Source of the DNA: Enterobacteria phage vB_EcoM_IME339
Sequence record: MH051915
Strand: one strand, 5' to 3'
Length of the DNA stretch: 64,000 nucleotides
This document shows, piece by piece, positions 34,271 to 36,386 of this stretch. The notes under the pieces were generated by a model. That model had not been told where the DNA came from. It made no database searches and saw only the letters and a program-made list of their open reading frames with translations. The stretch's first letter is position 1; the number at the start of each line of letters is the position of its first letter. A program made the position numbers and the translations under genes.

Positions 34271-34367
34271 ATATGCTTTAAGAATTATTTGTTATTATTA
34301 ACTCATACCGCACTGATTAATACCCTCTATCACCAAGGGCTCTTATTTGAGAGCCTTTGTTAATAAT

Positions 34368-34440
34368 TGGGAATTAGCCAAGTTGGTAAGGCACTGGATT
34401 TTGATTCCAGGATGCAAAGGTTCGAGTCCTTTATTCCCAG
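34368..34440 (+). tRNA. tRNA-Gln (anticodon UUG)
   Basis: Hand-folded cloverleaf: acceptor TGGGAAT/ATTCCCA, anticodon loop TTTTGAT, T-loop GGTTCGAGTCC; no encoded CCA. Confidence 0.85.
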
Positions 34441-34441
34441 C

Positions 34442-34528
34442 GCGAGAATGGTCAAATTGGTAAAGGCACAGCACTTAAAATGCTGCGGAATGATTTCCTT
34501 GTGGGTTCGAGTCCCACTTCTCGCACCA
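34442..34528 (+). tRNA. tRNA-Leu (anticodon UAA)
   Basis: Acceptor GCGAGAA/TTCTCGC, anticodon loop CTTAAAA, long variable arm, encoded CCA. Confidence 0.85.
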
Positions 34529-34533
34529 AATTT

Positions 34534-34607
<74 letters not shown>

Positions 34608-34617
34608 ATTTAATTTA

Positions 34618-34691
34618 CTCCGTGTAGCTCAGTTTGGTAGAGCGCCTGATTTGGGATCAGGAGGTCCAAGGTTCAAATCCTTGTATGGAGA
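34618..34691 (+). tRNA. tRNA-Pro (anticodon UGG)
   Basis: Anticodon loop TTTGGGA, T-arm CAAGG-TTCAAAT-CCTTG; acceptor stem has two G-U pairs, so boundaries are +/-2 nt. Confidence 0.75.
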
Positions 34692-34693
34692 CT

Positions 34694-34783
34694 GGAGGCG
34701 TGGCAGAGTGGTTTAATGCACCGGTCTTGAAAACCGGCAGTCGCTCCGGCGACTCATAGGTTCAAATCCTATCGCCTCCGCCA
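34694..34783 (+). tRNA. tRNA-Ser (anticodon UGA)
   Basis: Acceptor GGAGGCG/CGCCTCC, anticodon loop CTTGAAA, long variable arm, encoded CCA. Confidence 0.85.
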
Positions 34784-34788
34784 GTTTT

Positions 34789-34864
34789 GCTGATTTAGCT
34801 CAGTAGGTAGAGCAACTCACTTGTAATGAGAAGGTCGGCGGTTCGATTCCGTCAATCAGCACCA
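34789..34864 (+). tRNA. tRNA-Thr (anticodon UGU)
   Basis: Acceptor GCTGATT/AATCAGC, anticodon loop CTTGTAA, encoded CCA. Confidence 0.85.
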
Positions 34865-34865
34865 A

Positions 34866-34940
34866 GGCCCTGTAGCTGGAAGGTTCAAGCAAGCGACTCA
34901 TAATCGCCAGATGGTGGTTCAATTCCACCCAGGGCCACCA
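34866..34940 (+). tRNA. tRNA-Ile (anticodon CAU, presumably lysidine-modified to read AUA)
   Basis: Acceptor GGCCCTG/CAGGGCC, anticodon loop CTCATAA, encoded CCA; T4 tRNA-Ile has a CAU anticodon. Confidence 0.8.
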
Positions 34941-34953
34941 AATTAAGAATTAA

Positions 34954-35040
34954 GGGGAGTTATCCCGTAGAGGTAGCGGTGTGGACTGTAAATTCATTGT
35001 CATTGCGACTCGGGTGGTTCGACTCCCATCGGTCCCCCCC
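34954..35040 (+). ncRNA. Candidate small structured RNA between tRNA-Ile and tRNA-Arg (possibly stable-RNA species 1/2-like or a degenerate tRNA)
   Basis: GGGGAGT at the 5' end can pair with ACTCCC near the 3' end; contains GGTTCGACTCC T-loop-like motif and a C7 run; no canonical cloverleaf could be folded by hand. Confidence 0.25.
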
Positions 35041-35045
35041 AATTA

Positions 35046-35121
35046 CGGGGCATAGCTCAGAAGGAAGAGCAAGGACCTTCTAAGTCCTAGGTCGTAGGTT
35101 CGATCCCTACTGCCTCGACCA
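35046..35121 (+). tRNA. tRNA-Arg (anticodon UCU)
   Basis: Acceptor CGGGGCA/TGCCTCG (one G-U), anticodon loop CTTCTAA, T-arm GTAGG-TTCGATC-CCTAC, encoded CCA. Confidence 0.8.
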
Positions 35122-35137: not shown

Positions 35138-35488
35138 ATGAAAGGTAATGTTTATTTAGTAGTTCATGATTTAACATTTTATTTTAATCACAATGACACT
35201 GTTATTTCTGAACGTGTAATTAATTTGCTTTATCAACATGCGGATTATGTTTATGTCGAAAACGAATATGGTCATTGGCAATTTCTCAAAAATCGTTCAT
35301 TTGGCTTAGATGGTTACGAATACTTTGAACGTAAAGACCTTTTAGATAAAATTTCGTTATCTACGCAATATCAAAATCACAAGTCTTTACACAAATGCCG
35401 ACTAATTCGAAATGCTGAATCTGCGTATGAAGCAATTGATTTATGGCGTAAACGCCGTGAACAGATTGATGCTTTAAAAGAATATTAA
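35138..35488 (+). CDS. Hypothetical protein
   Basis: 116 aa ORF immediately after tRNA-Arg with GAGGAAAATATG RBS. Confidence 0.6.
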   Translation: MKGNVYLVVHDLTFYFNHNDTVISERVINLLYQHADYVYVENEYGHWQFLKNRSFGLDGYEYFERKDLLDKISLSTQYQNHKSLHKCRLIRNAESAYEAIDLWRKRREQIDALKEY

Positions 35489-35827
35489 GAAACCGGGTCG
35501 CTACCGGTAAGTCGTCGGACTGATGTTCCCTGGGTAAGGACTGGCATTAACAAATCTTTACGATCTGTTAATGTCCCCTTACATCACAGCAGAAACGGCG
35601 CACAGAATTATCGATTCGAGGAAATATCTTTGCCGTAAGCCGAGTAGCGTTTTTGACGGAACGTTCGGATATGGTCGAGATATGGCCTTTTAAAAATATT
35701 GAGTAGCGTCAACTGCTTAATAACCGGGTTCGAATCCCGGCGTTTCGTACAAACACTTGCCTTAGCAGGTGGAACCCCGACAAGGTTGCCGCAAGGCTTA
35801 GCCCCGACCGAAAGGTTGGGGCTTTTT
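35489..35827 (+). ncRNA. ORF-free structured region; candidate non-coding RNA(s) ending in an intrinsic terminator
   Basis: No ORF of 60 aa or more on either strand; local hairpins (ACCGG-7nt-CCGGT at 35492-35508); canonical tRNA T-arm CCGGG-TTCGAAT-CCCGG at ~35724-35740; duplicated GAGTAGCGT motif; terminator 35801-35827. Confidence 0.3.
35801..35827 (+). terminator. Rho-independent terminator
   Basis: GCCCCGACC-GAAA-GGTTGGGGC stem-loop followed by TTTTT. Confidence 0.75.
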
Positions 35828-35829
35828 AG

Positions 35830-35837
35830 TATAAATA
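35830..35837 (+). promoter_or_regulatory. T4-type late promoter (TATAAATA) for the internal-protein-like gene
   Basis: Exact TATAAATA ~40 nt upstream of ATG 35878. Confidence 0.6.
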
Positions 35838-35877
35838 TAGTAGTATATTAAATCCACGAATTAAAACAGGAAATAAG

Positions 35878-36351
35878 ATGAAATCATATGCTCAATTTTT
35901 AAATGAAGCGGTGTTAAATGAAGCATCTAGCACCGAAATTCAAGCTGTCGCAAAAGCAGCCATTGCAGCGGGTAAATATTCCTATAAAGATGCTTCTGAC
36001 GAATCACGATTCCAATTTGCTCGCGACATGAAAGCAGAAGGATTTACGGGAAATGCAGTTAGTATGGCCTGGAAAAGTTTAGTTGCTACTGGCGCTGCTT
36101 TTGCAAAGGCTTCGGGTAAACCTGCTCCTAAAGCAGATCCTAAAGCTGCACAAGAAAAAAATATCGTTAAAGGAATTATCTCTAAATATGAAGCTATCCT
36201 TAAAGAGCTTTTAGTAATCAAAACCGAAGGCCAAAAGCTAGCCCGTGCTTATAGTTTCAAAGATAATCCGCATGTTCACTCTCTTGAGTATGTTGAAGAC
36301 ATCCAAAAAATTATTAAAGACCGCATTTGGTCTGCTAAACAAATCAAATAA
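35878..36351 (+). CDS. Internal-protein-like capsid-targeted protein (IPII/IPIII-type leader), function unknown
   Basis: 157 aa; N-terminus MKSYAQFLNE|A matches the T4 capsid targeting sequence and gp21 cleavage motif (L-x-E); Ala/Lys-rich; late promoter upstream; terminator downstream. Confidence 0.75.
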   Translation: MKSYAQFLNEAVLNEASSTEIQAVAKAAIAAGKYSYKDASDESRFQFARDMKAEGFTGNAVSMAWKSLVATGAAFAKASGKPAPKADPKAAQEKNIVKGIISKYEAILKELLVIKTEGQKLARAYSFKDNPHVHSLEYVEDIQKIIKDRIWSAKQIK

Positions 36352-36358
36352 CATTCTT

Positions 36359-36386
36359 AACCCCAGCCGAAAGGTTGGGGCTTTTT
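36359..36386 (+). terminator. Rho-independent terminator
   Basis: CCCCAGCC-GAAA-GGTTGGGG stem-loop plus TTTTT; near-duplicate of the terminator at 35801. Confidence 0.75.

What the first reader, a model, noticed from the sequence alone, without database searches (positions are those of the whole stretch)
35489..35827. ORF-free ~340 bp structured region after the tRNA cluster with a canonical tRNA T-arm and a strong terminator
In an otherwise tightly packed genome, this stretch has no ORF of 60 aa or more on either strand. It contains several local hairpins, a duplicated GAGTAGCGT motif, and a perfect tRNA-type T-arm (CCGGG-TTCGAAT-CCCGG at ~35724-35740), but I could not fold a D-arm or anticodon arm. 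It ends in a 9-bp GAAA-tetraloop terminator. This is what a stable tRNA-like RNA processed by RNase P would look like; it may correspond to the poorly understood T4 stable RNAs species 1/2, or be something new.
Basis: partly seen in the sequence, partly recalled or inferred. Interest (0 to 1): 0.6.

Follow-up and report, generated by a model that had tools for sequence, protein, structure and literature searches.

The report
Phage T4 rnaD–rnaC stable RNA genes
This ORF-free stretch is the T4-type phage locus for two small stable RNAs known since the 1970s (species 2/rnaD and species 1/rnaC) plus the tRNA-operon terminator, so it is not new; their function is still unknown, and comparison across phages shows that rnaC is a tRNA look-alike whose anticodon-like loop is capped by a loop-loop contact.

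Summary
Window 35485-35828 is collinear with phage T4 rnaD (species 2 RNA, about 90% identical), a 6-nt spacer, rnaC (species 1 RNA, 137/139 identical), a conserved 3' trailer and the intrinsic terminator of the tRNA operon. About 750 Tevenvirinae records carry it; complete E. coli genomes do not. Neither RNA matches any Rfam family, and papers from 2010 to 2025 still call their function unknown.

What I add: 25 distinct rnaC homologs from 11 named genera plus one record without a genus support a cloverleaf-like fold by covariation. It has a 7-bp acceptor stem, a 3-bp D-stem-like helix, a roughly 60-nt arm inserted in the "D-loop", a 10-bp anticodon-like hairpin and a canonical T-arm. The arm's apical loop (UUGACG) pairs with the hairpin loop (CGUCAA) in 150/150 cells, with two independent compensatory changes.

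In other genera rnaC sits flush between tRNA genes. rnaD has an invariant core and a replaceable apical hairpin. A published adaptive SNP in phage BW-1 restores a base pair there.

Function (inferred, about 0.35): tRNA-mimic decoy or binding partner.

The element is already known; interest is modest.

The parts
34272..34310 (+). MotA-box-like (T4 middle-type) promoter candidate just upstream of the tRNA array (context)
   Evidence: TATGCTTTA motif found by regex. PMC2330249 states that a middle promoter just upstream of the cluster drives a ~1.75 kb transcript ending after species I. This is a consensus match only.
34368..35121 (+). tRNA array (Gln, Leu, Gly, Pro, Ser, Thr, Ile/Met-CAU, a weak Tyr, Arg); upstream part of the same transcription unit
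   Evidence: ARAGORN and Rfam. tRNA-Tyr at 34954-35041 is called only in relaxed mode.
35138..35488 (+). 116-aa ORF (phrog_3355, function unknown) lying between tRNA-Arg and rnaD; its stop codon abuts the rnaD 5' end
   Evidence: Absent from T4 and GiZh at this position. Present in BW-1.
35485..35604 (+). rnaD homolog (T4 species 2 RNA), about 120 nt
   Evidence: Local alignment to T4 rnaD positions 4-118. 18 distinct homologs in alignment A4.
35492..35508 (+). rnaD hairpin P1: ACCGG / GUCGCUA loop / CCGGU
   Evidence: The closing pair changes A-U to G-C in 3 sequences; the loop is invariant.
35511..35603 (+). rnaD closing stem (35511-35517 with 35596-35603) enclosing the rod-like body
   Evidence: MFE. 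Alifold pairs are invariant in 18/18 sequences, so they give no covariation evidence.
35532..35582 (+). rnaD variable apical hairpin (type A in this window)
   Evidence: Three sequence types that cannot be aligned to each other (A, B, C) each fold as a hairpin. The BW-1 adaptive SNP maps here.
35605..35610 (+). Spacer between rnaD and rnaC (GAATTA)
35611..35749 (+). rnaC homolog (T4 species 1 RNA), 139 nt
   Evidence: 137/139 identical to T4 rnaC. CM R1 scores it 159.6 bits.
35612..35618 (+). rnaC acceptor-stem 5' strand (positions 2-8), pairs with 35741-35747
   Evidence: Pair 4-135 is A-U in 11 sequences and G-C in 14. The tandem U.U becomes U-A/C-G in Tegunavirus.
35619..35621 (+). D-stem-like 5' strand A9G10G11, pairs with C76C77U78 (35686-35688)
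   Evidence: Invariant in 25/25 sequences, so this helix is predicted by MFE only and has no covariation support.
35624..35683 (+). Long arm (positions 14-73), an insertion in the D-loop-equivalent position
   Evidence: Multiple compensatory pairs. The arm sequence is unrelated in Melville, L029, fGh-Ecl04 and Marfavirus.
35653..35658 (+). Kissing loop 1: UUGACG (positions 43-48)
   Evidence: Pairs with 35707-35712 in 150/150 cells, with two independent compensatory events. It lies in the apical loop in the independent MFE fold of Melville's unrelated arm; in L029 and fGh-Ecl04 a local stem read from the sequence places it in a 6-nt apical loop.
35684..35685 (+). G74G75, unpaired in the MFE; candidate equivalents of tRNA G18G19
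   Evidence: G74/U120 in 22 sequences, C74/G120 in 3 (Kanagawavirus and Winklervirus). G75/C121 in 25/25. Suggestive only.
35689..35696 (+). A-rich single-stranded linker UUUAAAAA (positions 79-86)
   Evidence: A83-A86 are invariant in the 19-sequence alignment.
35697..35722 (+). Hairpin 2 (positions 87-112), the anticodon-arm equivalent: 10 bp plus the 6-nt loop CGUCAA (35707-35712, kissing loop 2)
   Evidence: 6 of 10 pairs show compensatory changes.
35724..35740 (+). T-arm CCGGG-UUCGAAU-CCCGG (positions 114-130)
   Evidence: Two stem pairs covary. The T-loop follows the tRNA consensus in all but the Kanagawavirus/Winklervirus lineage.
35741..35749 (+). Acceptor 3' strand (131-137), discriminator-like U138, and A139
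   Evidence: Marfavirus homologs read U138-CCA.
35750..35799 (+). Conserved 3' trailer with small hairpins (7-bp CACUUGC/GCAGGUG hairpin and others)
   Evidence: It follows rnaD directly in Dhakavirus phages, which lack rnaC.
35800..35828 (+). Intrinsic terminator of the tRNA/stable-RNA operon (10-bp stem, GAAA loop, T5)
   Evidence: PMC2330249: transcription terminates after the species I gene. GiZh annotates a terminator at this position.

Best explanation
The region is the 3' end of a T4-type tRNA operon. It encodes two small stable non-coding RNAs followed by a trailer and the operon terminator: rnaD (species 2, window about 35485-35604), rnaC (species 1, 35611-35749), trailer (35750-35799) and terminator (35800-35828).

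SHOWN here:
- Homology and synteny with the annotated T4 genes.
- A covariation-supported fold for rnaC with cloverleaf topology: a 7-bp acceptor stem, a 3-bp D-stem-like helix, a roughly 60-nt arm inserted in the D-loop-equivalent, an 8-nt A-rich linker, a 10-bp anticodon-like hairpin, one variable nucleotide, and a canonical T-arm.
- A six-base-pair loop-loop (kissing) interaction between the apex of the inserted arm and the anticodon-like loop.
- Placement of rnaC flush between tRNA genes in other genera.
- For rnaD, an invariant core with a replaceable apical hairpin.

INFERRED:
- Both RNAs are cut out of the polycistronic tRNA precursor by the host tRNA-processing machinery. For rnaC this would be RNase P at the 5' end and 3' trimming, possibly followed by CCA addition, because it presents the acceptor/T-arm minihelix.
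- They are stable because they are compact.
- rnaC cannot decode, because its anticodon-like loop is sequestered.
- Most likely mode of action (my estimate about 0.35): rnaC works in trans as a tRNA mimic that binds or titrates a protein recognising the acceptor/T-arm/elbow of tRNA, either a host defence or toxin factor or a tRNA-handling enzyme.
- rnaD is a separate structured RNA whose fold matters for growth on particular hosts.
For: Identity:
- 759 phage records match, 100% identical to phage ime09.
- T4 AF158101 annotates rnaD at 71053-71171 and rnaC at 70908-71046, directly after tRNA-Arg.
- rnaC is 137/139 identical; rnaD aligns over positions 4-118. GiZh, RB3, RB6, RB10 and RB27 annotate rnaC/rnaD at the same place.

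Expression in T4: RNAC was probed by northern blot and RNAC and RNAD are classed as late RNAs (PMC9697503). A ~1.75 kb precursor ends after species I (PMC2330249).

rnaC structure:
- 93.5% of cells paired against 38-46% when the partner is slid. 22 pairs carry double changes against 2-6. 0 of 500 shuffles reach the observed covariation score.
- On a CM alignment built without the pseudoknot, the kissing helix pairs in 150/150 cells against 17-50% when slid. There are two independent compensatory events: UUGAUG/CAUCAA in Tegunavirus and UUGGCG/CGCCAA in Marfavirus.
- UUGACG lies in the apical loop in the independent MFE fold of Melville's arm, whose sequence is otherwise unrelated. In L029 and fGh-Ecl04 a local stem read from the sequence places it in a 6-nt apical loop; the L029 whole-molecule MFE differs.

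tRNA slot: Trp|rnaC|Gly or Met|rnaC|Gly in Moon, Pet-CM3-4, Melville and fGh-Ecl04; preceded by tRNA-Met in Entb_45; followed by tRNA-Trp and tRNA-Gly in LC53. Marfavirus encodes U138-CCA.

rnaD:
- The P1 closing pair covaries and there are three interchangeable apical hairpin types.
- The BW-1 SNP found in all three ECOR34-evolved lines (PMC12685909) is A to G at rnaD position 76. It turns C x A into C-G, gives the sequence carried by natural relatives, and lowers the MFE from -25.9 to -31.0 kcal/mol.

Distribution: phage-specific, with no match in 5,426 complete E. coli genomes.
Against: - No function has ever been shown. Papers from 2010, 2022 and 2025 all say it is unknown.
- The decoy idea has no direct support, and no partner protein is known.
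- rnaC fails the formal tRNA models. Its best Rfam clan hit is tRNA-Sec at 16.6 bits, E = 3.3. Default ARAGORN makes no call.
- The D-stem-like helix never varies, so it is unproven.
- The elbow-like G74/U120 covariation rests on one or two related lineages.
- One lineage has a non-tRNA T-loop (UGCAUGC), so T-loop identity is not strictly required.
- The 3' end is UACA, not CCA, in most homologs, and the mature ends were not determined here.
- The kissing interaction could be intermolecular (a dimer) rather than intramolecular.
- The BW-1 SNP could be standing variation shared by the three lines rather than three independent events.
- To my recollection (not verified here), the T4 tRNA region is dispensable on laboratory hosts.
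Confidence: 0.9

Rival explanations
1. The RNAs have no trans function. The structured segments act only in cis, as processing punctuation and a 3' protective module that helps maturation and stability of the upstream tRNAs. The 'stable RNAs' are by-products.
For: - In Tequatrovirus they sit at the 3' end of the polycistronic tRNA transcript, just before the terminator.
- The trailer is conserved and stays attached even when rnaC is absent.
- rnaC is lost cleanly in Dhakavirus, so it is not essential to all relatives.
Against: - In Moonvirus, Karamvirus, Gelderlandvirus, Kanagawavirus and Winklervirus, rnaC lies in the middle of the array or ahead of other tRNAs, not at the 3' end.
- Selection keeps a specific tertiary contact (the kissing loops, with two compensatory events) and invariant single-stranded segments. 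That is more than a processing site needs.
- The BW-1 adaptive change is in the rnaD apical hairpin, far from any tRNA.
Confidence: 0.2
2. rnaC and rnaD are base-pairing regulatory sRNAs that act by antisense pairing on phage or host mRNAs.
For: - They are abundant late RNAs and are called 'small regulatory RNAs' in PMC9697503.
- rnaD has invariant stretches that the consensus fold leaves partly unpaired.
Against: [quoted passage not shown]
- In rnaC nearly all conserved bases are engaged in intramolecular helices or the kissing contact, which leaves only an A-rich linker and the T-loop free.
- I did not run a target search. Only 64 kb of the phage and no host genome were available offline.
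Confidence: 0.12
3. They are decaying tRNA pseudogenes or junk between genes, with no function.
For: - rnaC has tRNA topology and lies in tRNA arrays.
- The window also carries a visibly degenerating tRNA-Tyr.
- The tRNA region gains and loses genes freely.
Against: - rnaC is at least 97% identical across roughly 680 Tequatrovirus-like records.
- It shows 22 compensatory pairs across genera.
- Loops and linkers are invariant, and the tandem U.U is conserved in 23/25 sequences rather than drifting.
- rnaD has an invariant core of about 45 plus 20 nt across three hairpin types.
Confidence: 0.03
4. The region encodes small proteins, as many GenBank records annotate ('hypothetical protein' x2 or x3 over this stretch).
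For: - A 40-aa ATG ORF (35571-35693) and a 50-aa TTG ORF (35699-35851) exist.
- Several records annotate CDSs here.
Against: - The 40-aa ORF is 35 aa in T4. It has no ATG in KAW3E185, and JS98 retains only a 4-aa ORF.
- The TTG start of the 50-aa ORF is absent in the Moon and Tegunavirus sequences.
- Substitutions follow base-pair covariation, and single-base indels occur in the linker.
- The RNAs themselves are detected in T4.
Confidence: 0.02
5. The 3' two-thirds of rnaC (35656-35750) is a real, unusual tRNA. ARAGORN in relaxed mode calls tRNA-Leu(taa) with a 5-nt intron, or an undetermined tRNA. Some records annotate tRNA-Lys or tRNA-OTHER.
For: - ARAGORN with -i or -ps90 makes the call.
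- The internal strand 46-53 pairs 8/8 with 131-138 in Tequatrovirus.
- The records behind hits H119, H147 and H195 carry tRNA annotations.
Against: - The alternative stem falls to 7/8 and then 5/8 in other genera and shows no compensatory change. G49 to A49 together with U135 to C135 breaks it.
- The 5'-end acceptor, in contrast, covaries (A4-U135 to G4-C135; U.U to U-A/C-G).
- The segment 46-48 belongs to the conserved kissing loop.
- The Rfam tRNA-clan score is only 16.6 bits.
Confidence: 0.03

Closest known systems
Bacteriophage T4 rnaC (species 1 / species I RNA; AF158101 70908-71046)
   Same: 137/139 identical, with the same length, the same neighbours (rnaD upstream, trailer and terminator downstream) and the same strand relative to the tRNA array. 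This is the same gene.
   Different: There are two substitutions. Both fit the fold: U94.G105 here against U94-A105 in T4, and the unpaired position 66 is C here against U in T4. In this phage a 116-aa ORF separates tRNA-Arg from rnaD.
Bacteriophage T4 rnaD (species 2 RNA; AF158101 71053-71171)
   Same: Same position and the same invariant 5' and 3' cores. The apical hairpin is of the same sequence type (A).
   Different: About 10% divergence, concentrated in the apical hairpin. In T4 rnaD starts one base after tRNA-Arg. Here it starts at the stop codon of an inserted ORF, so its 5' end cannot be generated by tRNA-Arg 3' processing alone (inference).
Canonical tRNA (Rfam RF00005, clan CL00001)
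   Same: A 7-bp acceptor stem, a 5-bp T-stem with a UUCGAAU T-loop and a G53-C61-type closing pair, cloverleaf order of helices, location inside tRNA arrays, and U-CCA encoded in the Marfavirus homologs.
   Different: - There are no nucleotides 8-9 between acceptor and D-stem.
- The D-stem has 3 bp, with a roughly 60-nt arm inserted in the D-loop.
- An 8-nt linker replaces nucleotide 26.
- The anticodon-like arm has 10 bp and a 6-nt loop without U33, and that loop is paired intramolecularly.
- The variable region is 1 nt.
- The acceptor stem carries a tandem U.U.
- It scores below every tRNA model threshold.
tmRNA tRNA-like domain
   Same: An acceptor stem plus T-arm module joined to a large non-tRNA body; it is not a decoder in the usual sense.
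   Different: No tag reading frame and no pseudoknot series. ARAGORN tmRNA mode finds nothing. There is no G3.U70 alanine identity pair; position 3:70 is A-U or G-C.
Bacterial and phage Y-RNA-like YrlA (tRNA-mimicking module bound by Ro/Rsr)
   Same: A non-coding RNA that mimics the tRNA acceptor/T-arm/D-loop elbow and is handled by tRNA enzymes (this description is from my own knowledge).
   Different: No Rfam hit to any Y RNA or YrlA family, even at E up to 10. In rnaC the T-arm is adjacent to the 3' acceptor strand as in real tRNA, and there is no long Ro-binding terminal stem.
Loop-loop kissing complexes (e.g. TAR-TAR*, ColE1 RNA I/RNA II)
   Same: Two 6-nt hairpin loops that are fully complementary, with covariation that keeps all six pairs.
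   Different: Here both loops are in one molecule and close a ring within a tRNA-like scaffold. Whether the contact is intra- or intermolecular was not determined.

Membership tests
T4 rnaC (species 1 RNA) gene family | Sequence homology to T4 rnaC over its full length | tested here: met
   137/139 identical to AF158101 70908-71046. CM R1 scores the window copy 159.6 bits.
T4 rnaC (species 1 RNA) gene family | Location in the tRNA gene cluster, co-oriented with the tRNAs and upstream of the cluster terminator | tested here: met
T4 rnaC (species 1 RNA) gene family | Accumulates as a discrete stable RNA of about 140 nt in infected cells | not testable with these tools
   Shown for T4 by northern blot in PMC9697503. 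There are no expression data for this phage.
T4 rnaD (species 2 RNA) gene family | Sequence homology to T4 rnaD and a position immediately upstream of rnaC | tested here: met
   Aligned over rnaD positions 4-118 with a 6-nt spacer to rnaC. The invariant 5' and 3' cores are shared by 18 homologs.
tRNA (Rfam RF00005 / clan CL00001) | Score at or above the Rfam gathering threshold, or a default ARAGORN call | tested here: not met
   No gathering-level hit. The best clan hit is tRNA-Sec at 16.6 bits against a threshold of 47, E = 3.3. Default ARAGORN makes no call. Only relaxed modes call a non-conserved alternative fold.
tRNA (Rfam RF00005 / clan CL00001) | 7-bp acceptor stem continuous with a 5-bp T-stem and a 7-nt T-loop (UUCRANY) | tested here: met
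   Acceptor 2-8/131-137 and T-stem 114-118/126-130, both with covariation. The T-loop fits the consensus in 22 of 25 distinct sequences.
tRNA (Rfam RF00005 / clan CL00001) | 5-bp anticodon stem with a 7-nt loop (U33, free anticodon) | tested here: not met
   The stem has 10 bp, and the 6-nt loop CGUCAA is fully paired with 43-48.
tRNA (Rfam RF00005 / clan CL00001) | D-loop GG contacting T-loop positions 55/56 (the elbow) | tested here: inconclusive
   G74G75 are unpaired and conserved. C74 accompanies G120 in 3 sequences from related lineages. That is one or two events only.
tRNA (Rfam RF00005 / clan CL00001) | 3' CCA end and aminoacylation | not testable with these tools
   Most homologs read U138-ACA. 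Marfavirus reads U138-CCA. The mature 3' end and charging are unknown.
tmRNA | tRNA-like domain plus a tag-peptide reading frame, detectable by ARAGORN or Rfam | tested here: not met
   ARAGORN -m finds 0 genes. There is no Rfam tmRNA hit.
Rho-independent (intrinsic) terminator | G+C-rich hairpin directly followed by a U tract, at the end of a transcription unit | tested here: met
   35800-35823: 10 pairs (7 G-C), GAAA loop, then TTTTT. The literature places the operon end here.

The most novel reading that the evidence does not exclude
rnaC is a purpose-built tRNA mimic. It keeps the acceptor/T-arm/elbow face that tRNA-binding proteins read, while an inserted arm folds back to cap its own anticodon-like loop. 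That would make it non-decoding and resistant to anticodon nucleases. Under this reading it acts as an abundant late decoy or inhibitor of a host tRNA-targeting defence or toxin, or of a tRNA-handling enzyme. rnaD would be a second structured host-range determinant, as suggested by the BW-1 adaptive mutation that repairs its apical stem. This would be the first assigned function for two RNAs that have been orphans for 50 years, and a new class of RNA-based phage counter-defence.
Probability: 0.2. Interest if true: 0.75.

Novelty: already known. Interest (0 to 1): 0.35.

Why it matters
The element itself is textbook T4: species 1 and 2 RNAs, annotated as rnaC and rnaD. Finding it in a T4-like genome is expected. 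What remains open is its function, which reviews and omics papers from 2010, 2022 and 2025 all list as unknown.

The comparative analysis here turns that question into specific, cheap experiments:
- It defines which bases matter: two 6-nt kissing loops, a conserved tandem U.U in the acceptor stem, the G74G75/T-loop pair, and the rnaD apical stem.
- It shows rnaC is a mobile, tRNA-slot cassette present in at least 11 genera.
- It gives a structural reading of a published adaptive SNP, namely that it restores a base pair.

It also flags a widespread annotation error. Most of the records listed either leave the region unannotated or call it 'hypothetical protein', 'tRNA-Lys' or 'tRNA-OTHER'. There is also no Rfam family for either RNA.

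Tried and rejected
(1) My first IMG/VR pattern scan used a 7-N spacer where the real spacing is 6. Its 7 hits do not bear on rnaC. I repeated it correctly (20 loci, 2 of them chance matches).

(2) A gapped pattern built on the kissing-loop elements (CGAGGA..TTGAYG..CRTCAACT) was too loose. Absence is established only for complete E. coli genomes.

(3) I considered the relaxed ARAGORN tRNA call on rnaC 46-140 and rejected it because it is not conserved.

(4) I rejected protein-coding readings of the 40-aa and 50-aa ORFs.

(5) rnaD as a tRNA-like RNA: its closing stem plus a 1-nt 3' tail and its 5' hairpin do not match the acceptor/T-arm topology, so I rejected this on reading the fold.

(6) A 6-nt complementarity between rnaD GAAACG and rnaC CGUUUC is at chance level by my own rough estimate (about 4 such matches expected by chance between RNAs of these lengths). 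I did not pursue it.

(7) Literature searches for a function, a partner protein or the classical deletion genetics (CT439) found nothing beyond 'unknown function'. The T4 genome review (PMC150520) is not held in the library.

(8) I did not attempt antisense-target prediction, because no host genome or full phage genome was available offline.
Full report
**1. What is there**

The window is a Tequatrovirus (T4-like) genome segment. The flagged stretch is 100% identical to phage ime09 and several others, and matches 759 phage records in total.

Upstream lies a tRNA array, Gln-Leu-Gly-Pro-Ser-Thr-Ile(CAU)-[weak Tyr]-Arg, at 34368-35121. The T4 reference record AF158101 annotates rnaD ("small, stable RNA; species 2 RNA", 71053-71171) and rnaC ("species 1 RNA", 70908-71046) directly after tRNA-Arg.

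Alignment shows the flagged region is collinear with these genes:
- rnaD corresponds to window about 35485-35604, aligned over T4 positions 4-118.
- A 6-nt spacer follows.
- rnaC is 35611-35749, 137/139 identical.
- A conserved trailer covers 35750-35799.
- The terminator is 35800-35828.

Phage GiZh and several RB phages annotate rnaC or rnaD at the same place.

**2. The observation**

All details check out:
- No ORF of 60 aa or more.
- The T-arm is at 35724-35740. Its core GGTTCGAATCC is found exactly once in the window. The other six near matches are all T-arms in the tRNA array: five called tRNAs and the weak tRNA-Tyr.
- The 9-mer GAGTAGCGT occurs twice, at 35642 and 35701, against 0.15 expected.
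- The terminator has a 10-bp stem, a GAAA loop and T5.
- Each of the three segments folds far better than shuffles, with z = -4.55, -3.68 and -4.17.
- Rfam has no family for either RNA. Nothing reaches a gathering score, and nothing meaningful appears at E up to 10.

**3. What is known**

The literature held in the library is consistent:
- "RNAs of yet unknown functions", classified as late RNAs and checked by northern blot (PMC9697503, 2022).
- "of unknown function" (PMC12685909, 2025).
- PMC2330249 describes one ~1.75 kb primary transcript, from a middle promoter upstream of the cluster, that ends after the species I gene and is the precursor of the tRNAs and both RNAs. A MotA-box-like motif lies at 34272.

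From my own memory, not verified here: species 1 RNA was sequenced by Paddock and Abelson in the 1970s; it is a classical in-vitro RNase III substrate; and a dimeric species 2 + species 1 precursor was used in RNA-processing studies.

**4. rnaC structure**

I collected homologs from the phage collection and IMG/VR. This gave 25 distinct sequences. They come from Tequatrovirus, Gaprivervirus, Mosigvirus, Kanagawavirus, Moonvirus, Karamvirus, Tegunavirus, Gelderlandvirus, Winklervirus, Marfavirus and related unclassified contigs.

The MFE fold of the window copy was tested on a 19-sequence alignment:
- 93.5% of cells are paired, against 38-46% when the 3' partners are slid.
- 22 pairs carry changes on both sides, against 2-6 in the slid controls.
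- 0 of 500 shuffles reach the observed covariation score.

The fold has cloverleaf topology:
- Acceptor stem 2-8/131-137. Pair 4-135 is A-U in 11 sequences and G-C in 14. A tandem U.U is conserved in 23/25 and becomes U-A/C-G in Tegunavirus.
- A 3-bp D-stem-like helix, A9G10G11/C76C77U78. It is invariant, so it is unproven.
- A "D-loop" made of A12A13, a roughly 60-nt arm (14-73) and G74G75.
- An 8-nt A-rich linker.
- A 10-bp hairpin (87-112) with the loop CGUCAA.
- A113.
- The T-arm (114-130).
- U138.

**5. A loop-loop contact**

The apical loop of the inserted arm (U43UGACG48) is complementary to the hairpin-2 loop (C97GUCAA102). I realigned the sequences with a covariance model that does not contain this interaction.

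- On that alignment all six pairs form in all 25 distinct sequences (150/150 cells), against 17-50% when the partner is slid.
- There are two independent compensatory events at different positions: C47-G98 to U-A in Tegunavirus, and A46-U99 to G-C in Marfavirus.
- In Melville, L029 and fGh-Ecl04 the arm has an unrelated sequence, yet the UUGACG hexamer is retained. In Melville the independent MFE fold puts it in the apical loop. In L029 and fGh-Ecl04 a local stem read from the sequence places it in a 6-nt loop, although the L029 whole-molecule MFE differs.

The anticodon-like loop is therefore occupied, and rnaC cannot be a decoder. Whether the contact is within one molecule or between two was not resolved.

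A further hint of a tRNA-like elbow: G74G75 accompany T-loop U120C121 in 22 sequences. The three sequences whose T-loop has G at position 120 (Kanagawavirus and Winklervirus) have C74. These lineages are related, so this is suggestive only.

**6. Genomic behaviour**

- In Moon, Pet-CM3-4, Melville and fGh-Ecl04, rnaC lies flush between tRNA genes (Trp|rnaC|Gly or Met|rnaC|Gly). In Entb_45 a tRNA-Met immediately precedes it. In LC53 it lies a few bases upstream of tRNA-Trp and tRNA-Gly. So it occupies a tRNA slot.
- Marfavirus copies encode U138-CCA.
- Dhakavirus phages (JS98, IME08, MX01) have tRNA-Arg, rnaD, trailer and terminator but lack rnaC precisely. rnaC therefore behaves as a cassette.
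- No relative exists in 5,426 complete E. coli genomes.

These facts, together with the acceptor/T-arm minihelix, support the inference (not tested) that rnaC is excised and matured by the tRNA machinery.

**7. rnaD**

Eighteen distinct homologs share near-invariant 5' (about 45 nt) and 3' (about 20 nt) segments.
- The 5' hairpin (ACCGG/GUCGCUA/CCGGU) has one covarying pair.
- The closing stem is invariant.
- The apical hairpin exists in three sequence types that cannot be aligned to each other. Types A and B, the evolved BW-1 type C sequence and its natural relative EAWsc9 fold as rods; the ancestral BW-1 sequence does not.
- rnaD is not tRNA-like.

The BW-1 paper reports one SNP shared by all three lines evolved on the semi-permissive host ECOR34.
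- I map it to rnaD position 76, A to G on the RNA strand.
- It converts CACAG/CUAUG to CACAG/CUGUG, so a C x A mismatch becomes C-G.
- The result matches the sequence of natural type C relatives.
- The predicted fold changes from a disordered -25.9 kcal/mol structure to the common rod at -31.0 kcal/mol.

[quoted passage not shown] My reading differs. Caveat: a SNP shared by all three lines could be standing variation in the ancestral stock.

**8. Mechanism**

Shown:
- identity with the T4 genes;
- the folds;
- the capped anticodon-like loop;
- tRNA-slot placement;
- phage restriction.

Inferred:
- co-transcription with the tRNAs;
- excision by RNase P and other processing enzymes;
- stability that comes from compactness;
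- no decoding.

For function I commit to a trans-acting tRNA mimic for rnaC: a decoy or binding partner of a protein that reads the acceptor/T-arm/elbow. I put this at roughly 0.35. The rivals are a purely cis processing role (0.2), antisense regulation (0.12), and pseudogene, coding or real-tRNA readings (each 0.03 or less). The arguments for and against each are in the rival entries.

**9. Verdict**

It is ordinary for a T4-like genome, so novelty is "already known". Interest is modest. It rests on the 50-year-old open question of function and on the structural features defined here, which can now be tested directly.

Noticed in passing
window 34954-35041: A tRNA-Tyr(GUA)-like gene that default ARAGORN and the Rfam gathering threshold miss (tRNA-Sec model 22.9 bits; called only with -ps90). 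Compared with GiZh's tRNA-Tyr, it has changes in the acceptor 3' strand, an extra C at the T-stem, and a weakened anticodon-stem pair. The tRNA-Asn that follows in GiZh is absent. It may be a decaying tRNA at a recombination junction.
   Followed up: partly
window 35138-35488: A 116-aa ORF (phrog_3355, unknown function) sits between tRNA-Arg and rnaD, and its stop codon abuts the rnaD 5' end. It is absent at this position in T4 and GiZh and present in BW-1. It implies that rnaD's 5' end here must be made by cleavage of an mRNA-rnaD junction rather than by tRNA-Arg 3' processing.
   Followed up: partly
window 35830-36385: The 157-aa ORF 35878-36351 (phrog_2280, unknown function) is absent from T4. 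It is preceded by a late-promoter-like TATAAATA (35830-35837) and followed by a near-copy of the operon terminator (36361-36380 plus a T run). After that, the sequence rejoins what follows the single terminator in T4. This looks like a gene cassette inserted with a terminator duplication.
   Followed up: partly
L008 (JS98) 695-900; L275 (MX01); L276 (IME08): Dhakavirus phages have tRNA-Arg, rnaD, trailer and terminator, but rnaC is missing precisely (junction ...GCGCACAGAA|CACTTGCC...). So rnaC is gained or lost as a discrete cassette of about 150 nt.
   Followed up: partly
window 35656-35663 with 35741-35748 (rnaC 46-53 with 131-138): In Tequatrovirus the 3' acceptor strand can alternatively pair 8/8 with an internal segment that overlaps the kissing loop. 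This is what relaxed ARAGORN reports as a tRNA. It is not conserved in other genera (7/8, then 5/8). It could still be a lineage-specific alternative conformer or a precursor-stage fold.
   Followed up: partly
window 35497-35503 (rnaD P1 loop GUCGCUA) versus 35645-35649 and 35704-35708 (UAGCG in both copies of GAGTAGCGT): The invariant rnaD hairpin loop is complementary over 5 nt (CGCUA/UAGCG) to both copies of the duplicated motif in rnaC. The repeat is not conserved in the Melville-type or Marfavirus rnaC sequences. rnaC and rnaD also occur without each other, so this may be coincidence.
   Followed up: no
L003, L019, L035, L282 (Kanagawavirus) and L281 (Winklervirus), T-loop of rnaC: These lineages replace the tRNA-type T-loop UUCGAAU by UGCAUGC or UGCAUCC (the first is partly palindromic) while keeping the rest of rnaC. 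G74 changes to C at the same time.
   Followed up: partly
public records listed: Most of the phage records listed that carry this locus leave it unannotated or annotate 'hypothetical protein' (x2-x3), 'tRNA-Lys' or 'tRNA-OTHER' over rnaC/rnaD. Only a handful carry rnaC/rnaD. No Rfam family exists for either RNA.
   Followed up: no
L272 (BW-1) position 376, which is rnaD position 76: The published convergent SNP of BW-1 evolved on ECOR34 restores a Watson-Crick pair in the rnaD apical stem and matches the natural consensus of type C rnaD. The original paper counted the position from the other end and placed rnaC upstream of rnaD, which reverses the transcription order.
   Followed up: yes
L273 and L277, trailer region: Two phages carry an 11-nt deletion that removes the third small trailer hairpin (TGCCGCAAGGC), so that hairpin is dispensable. 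Several phages also have TT in place of GA in the terminator stem, which creates an internal mismatch.
   Followed up: no
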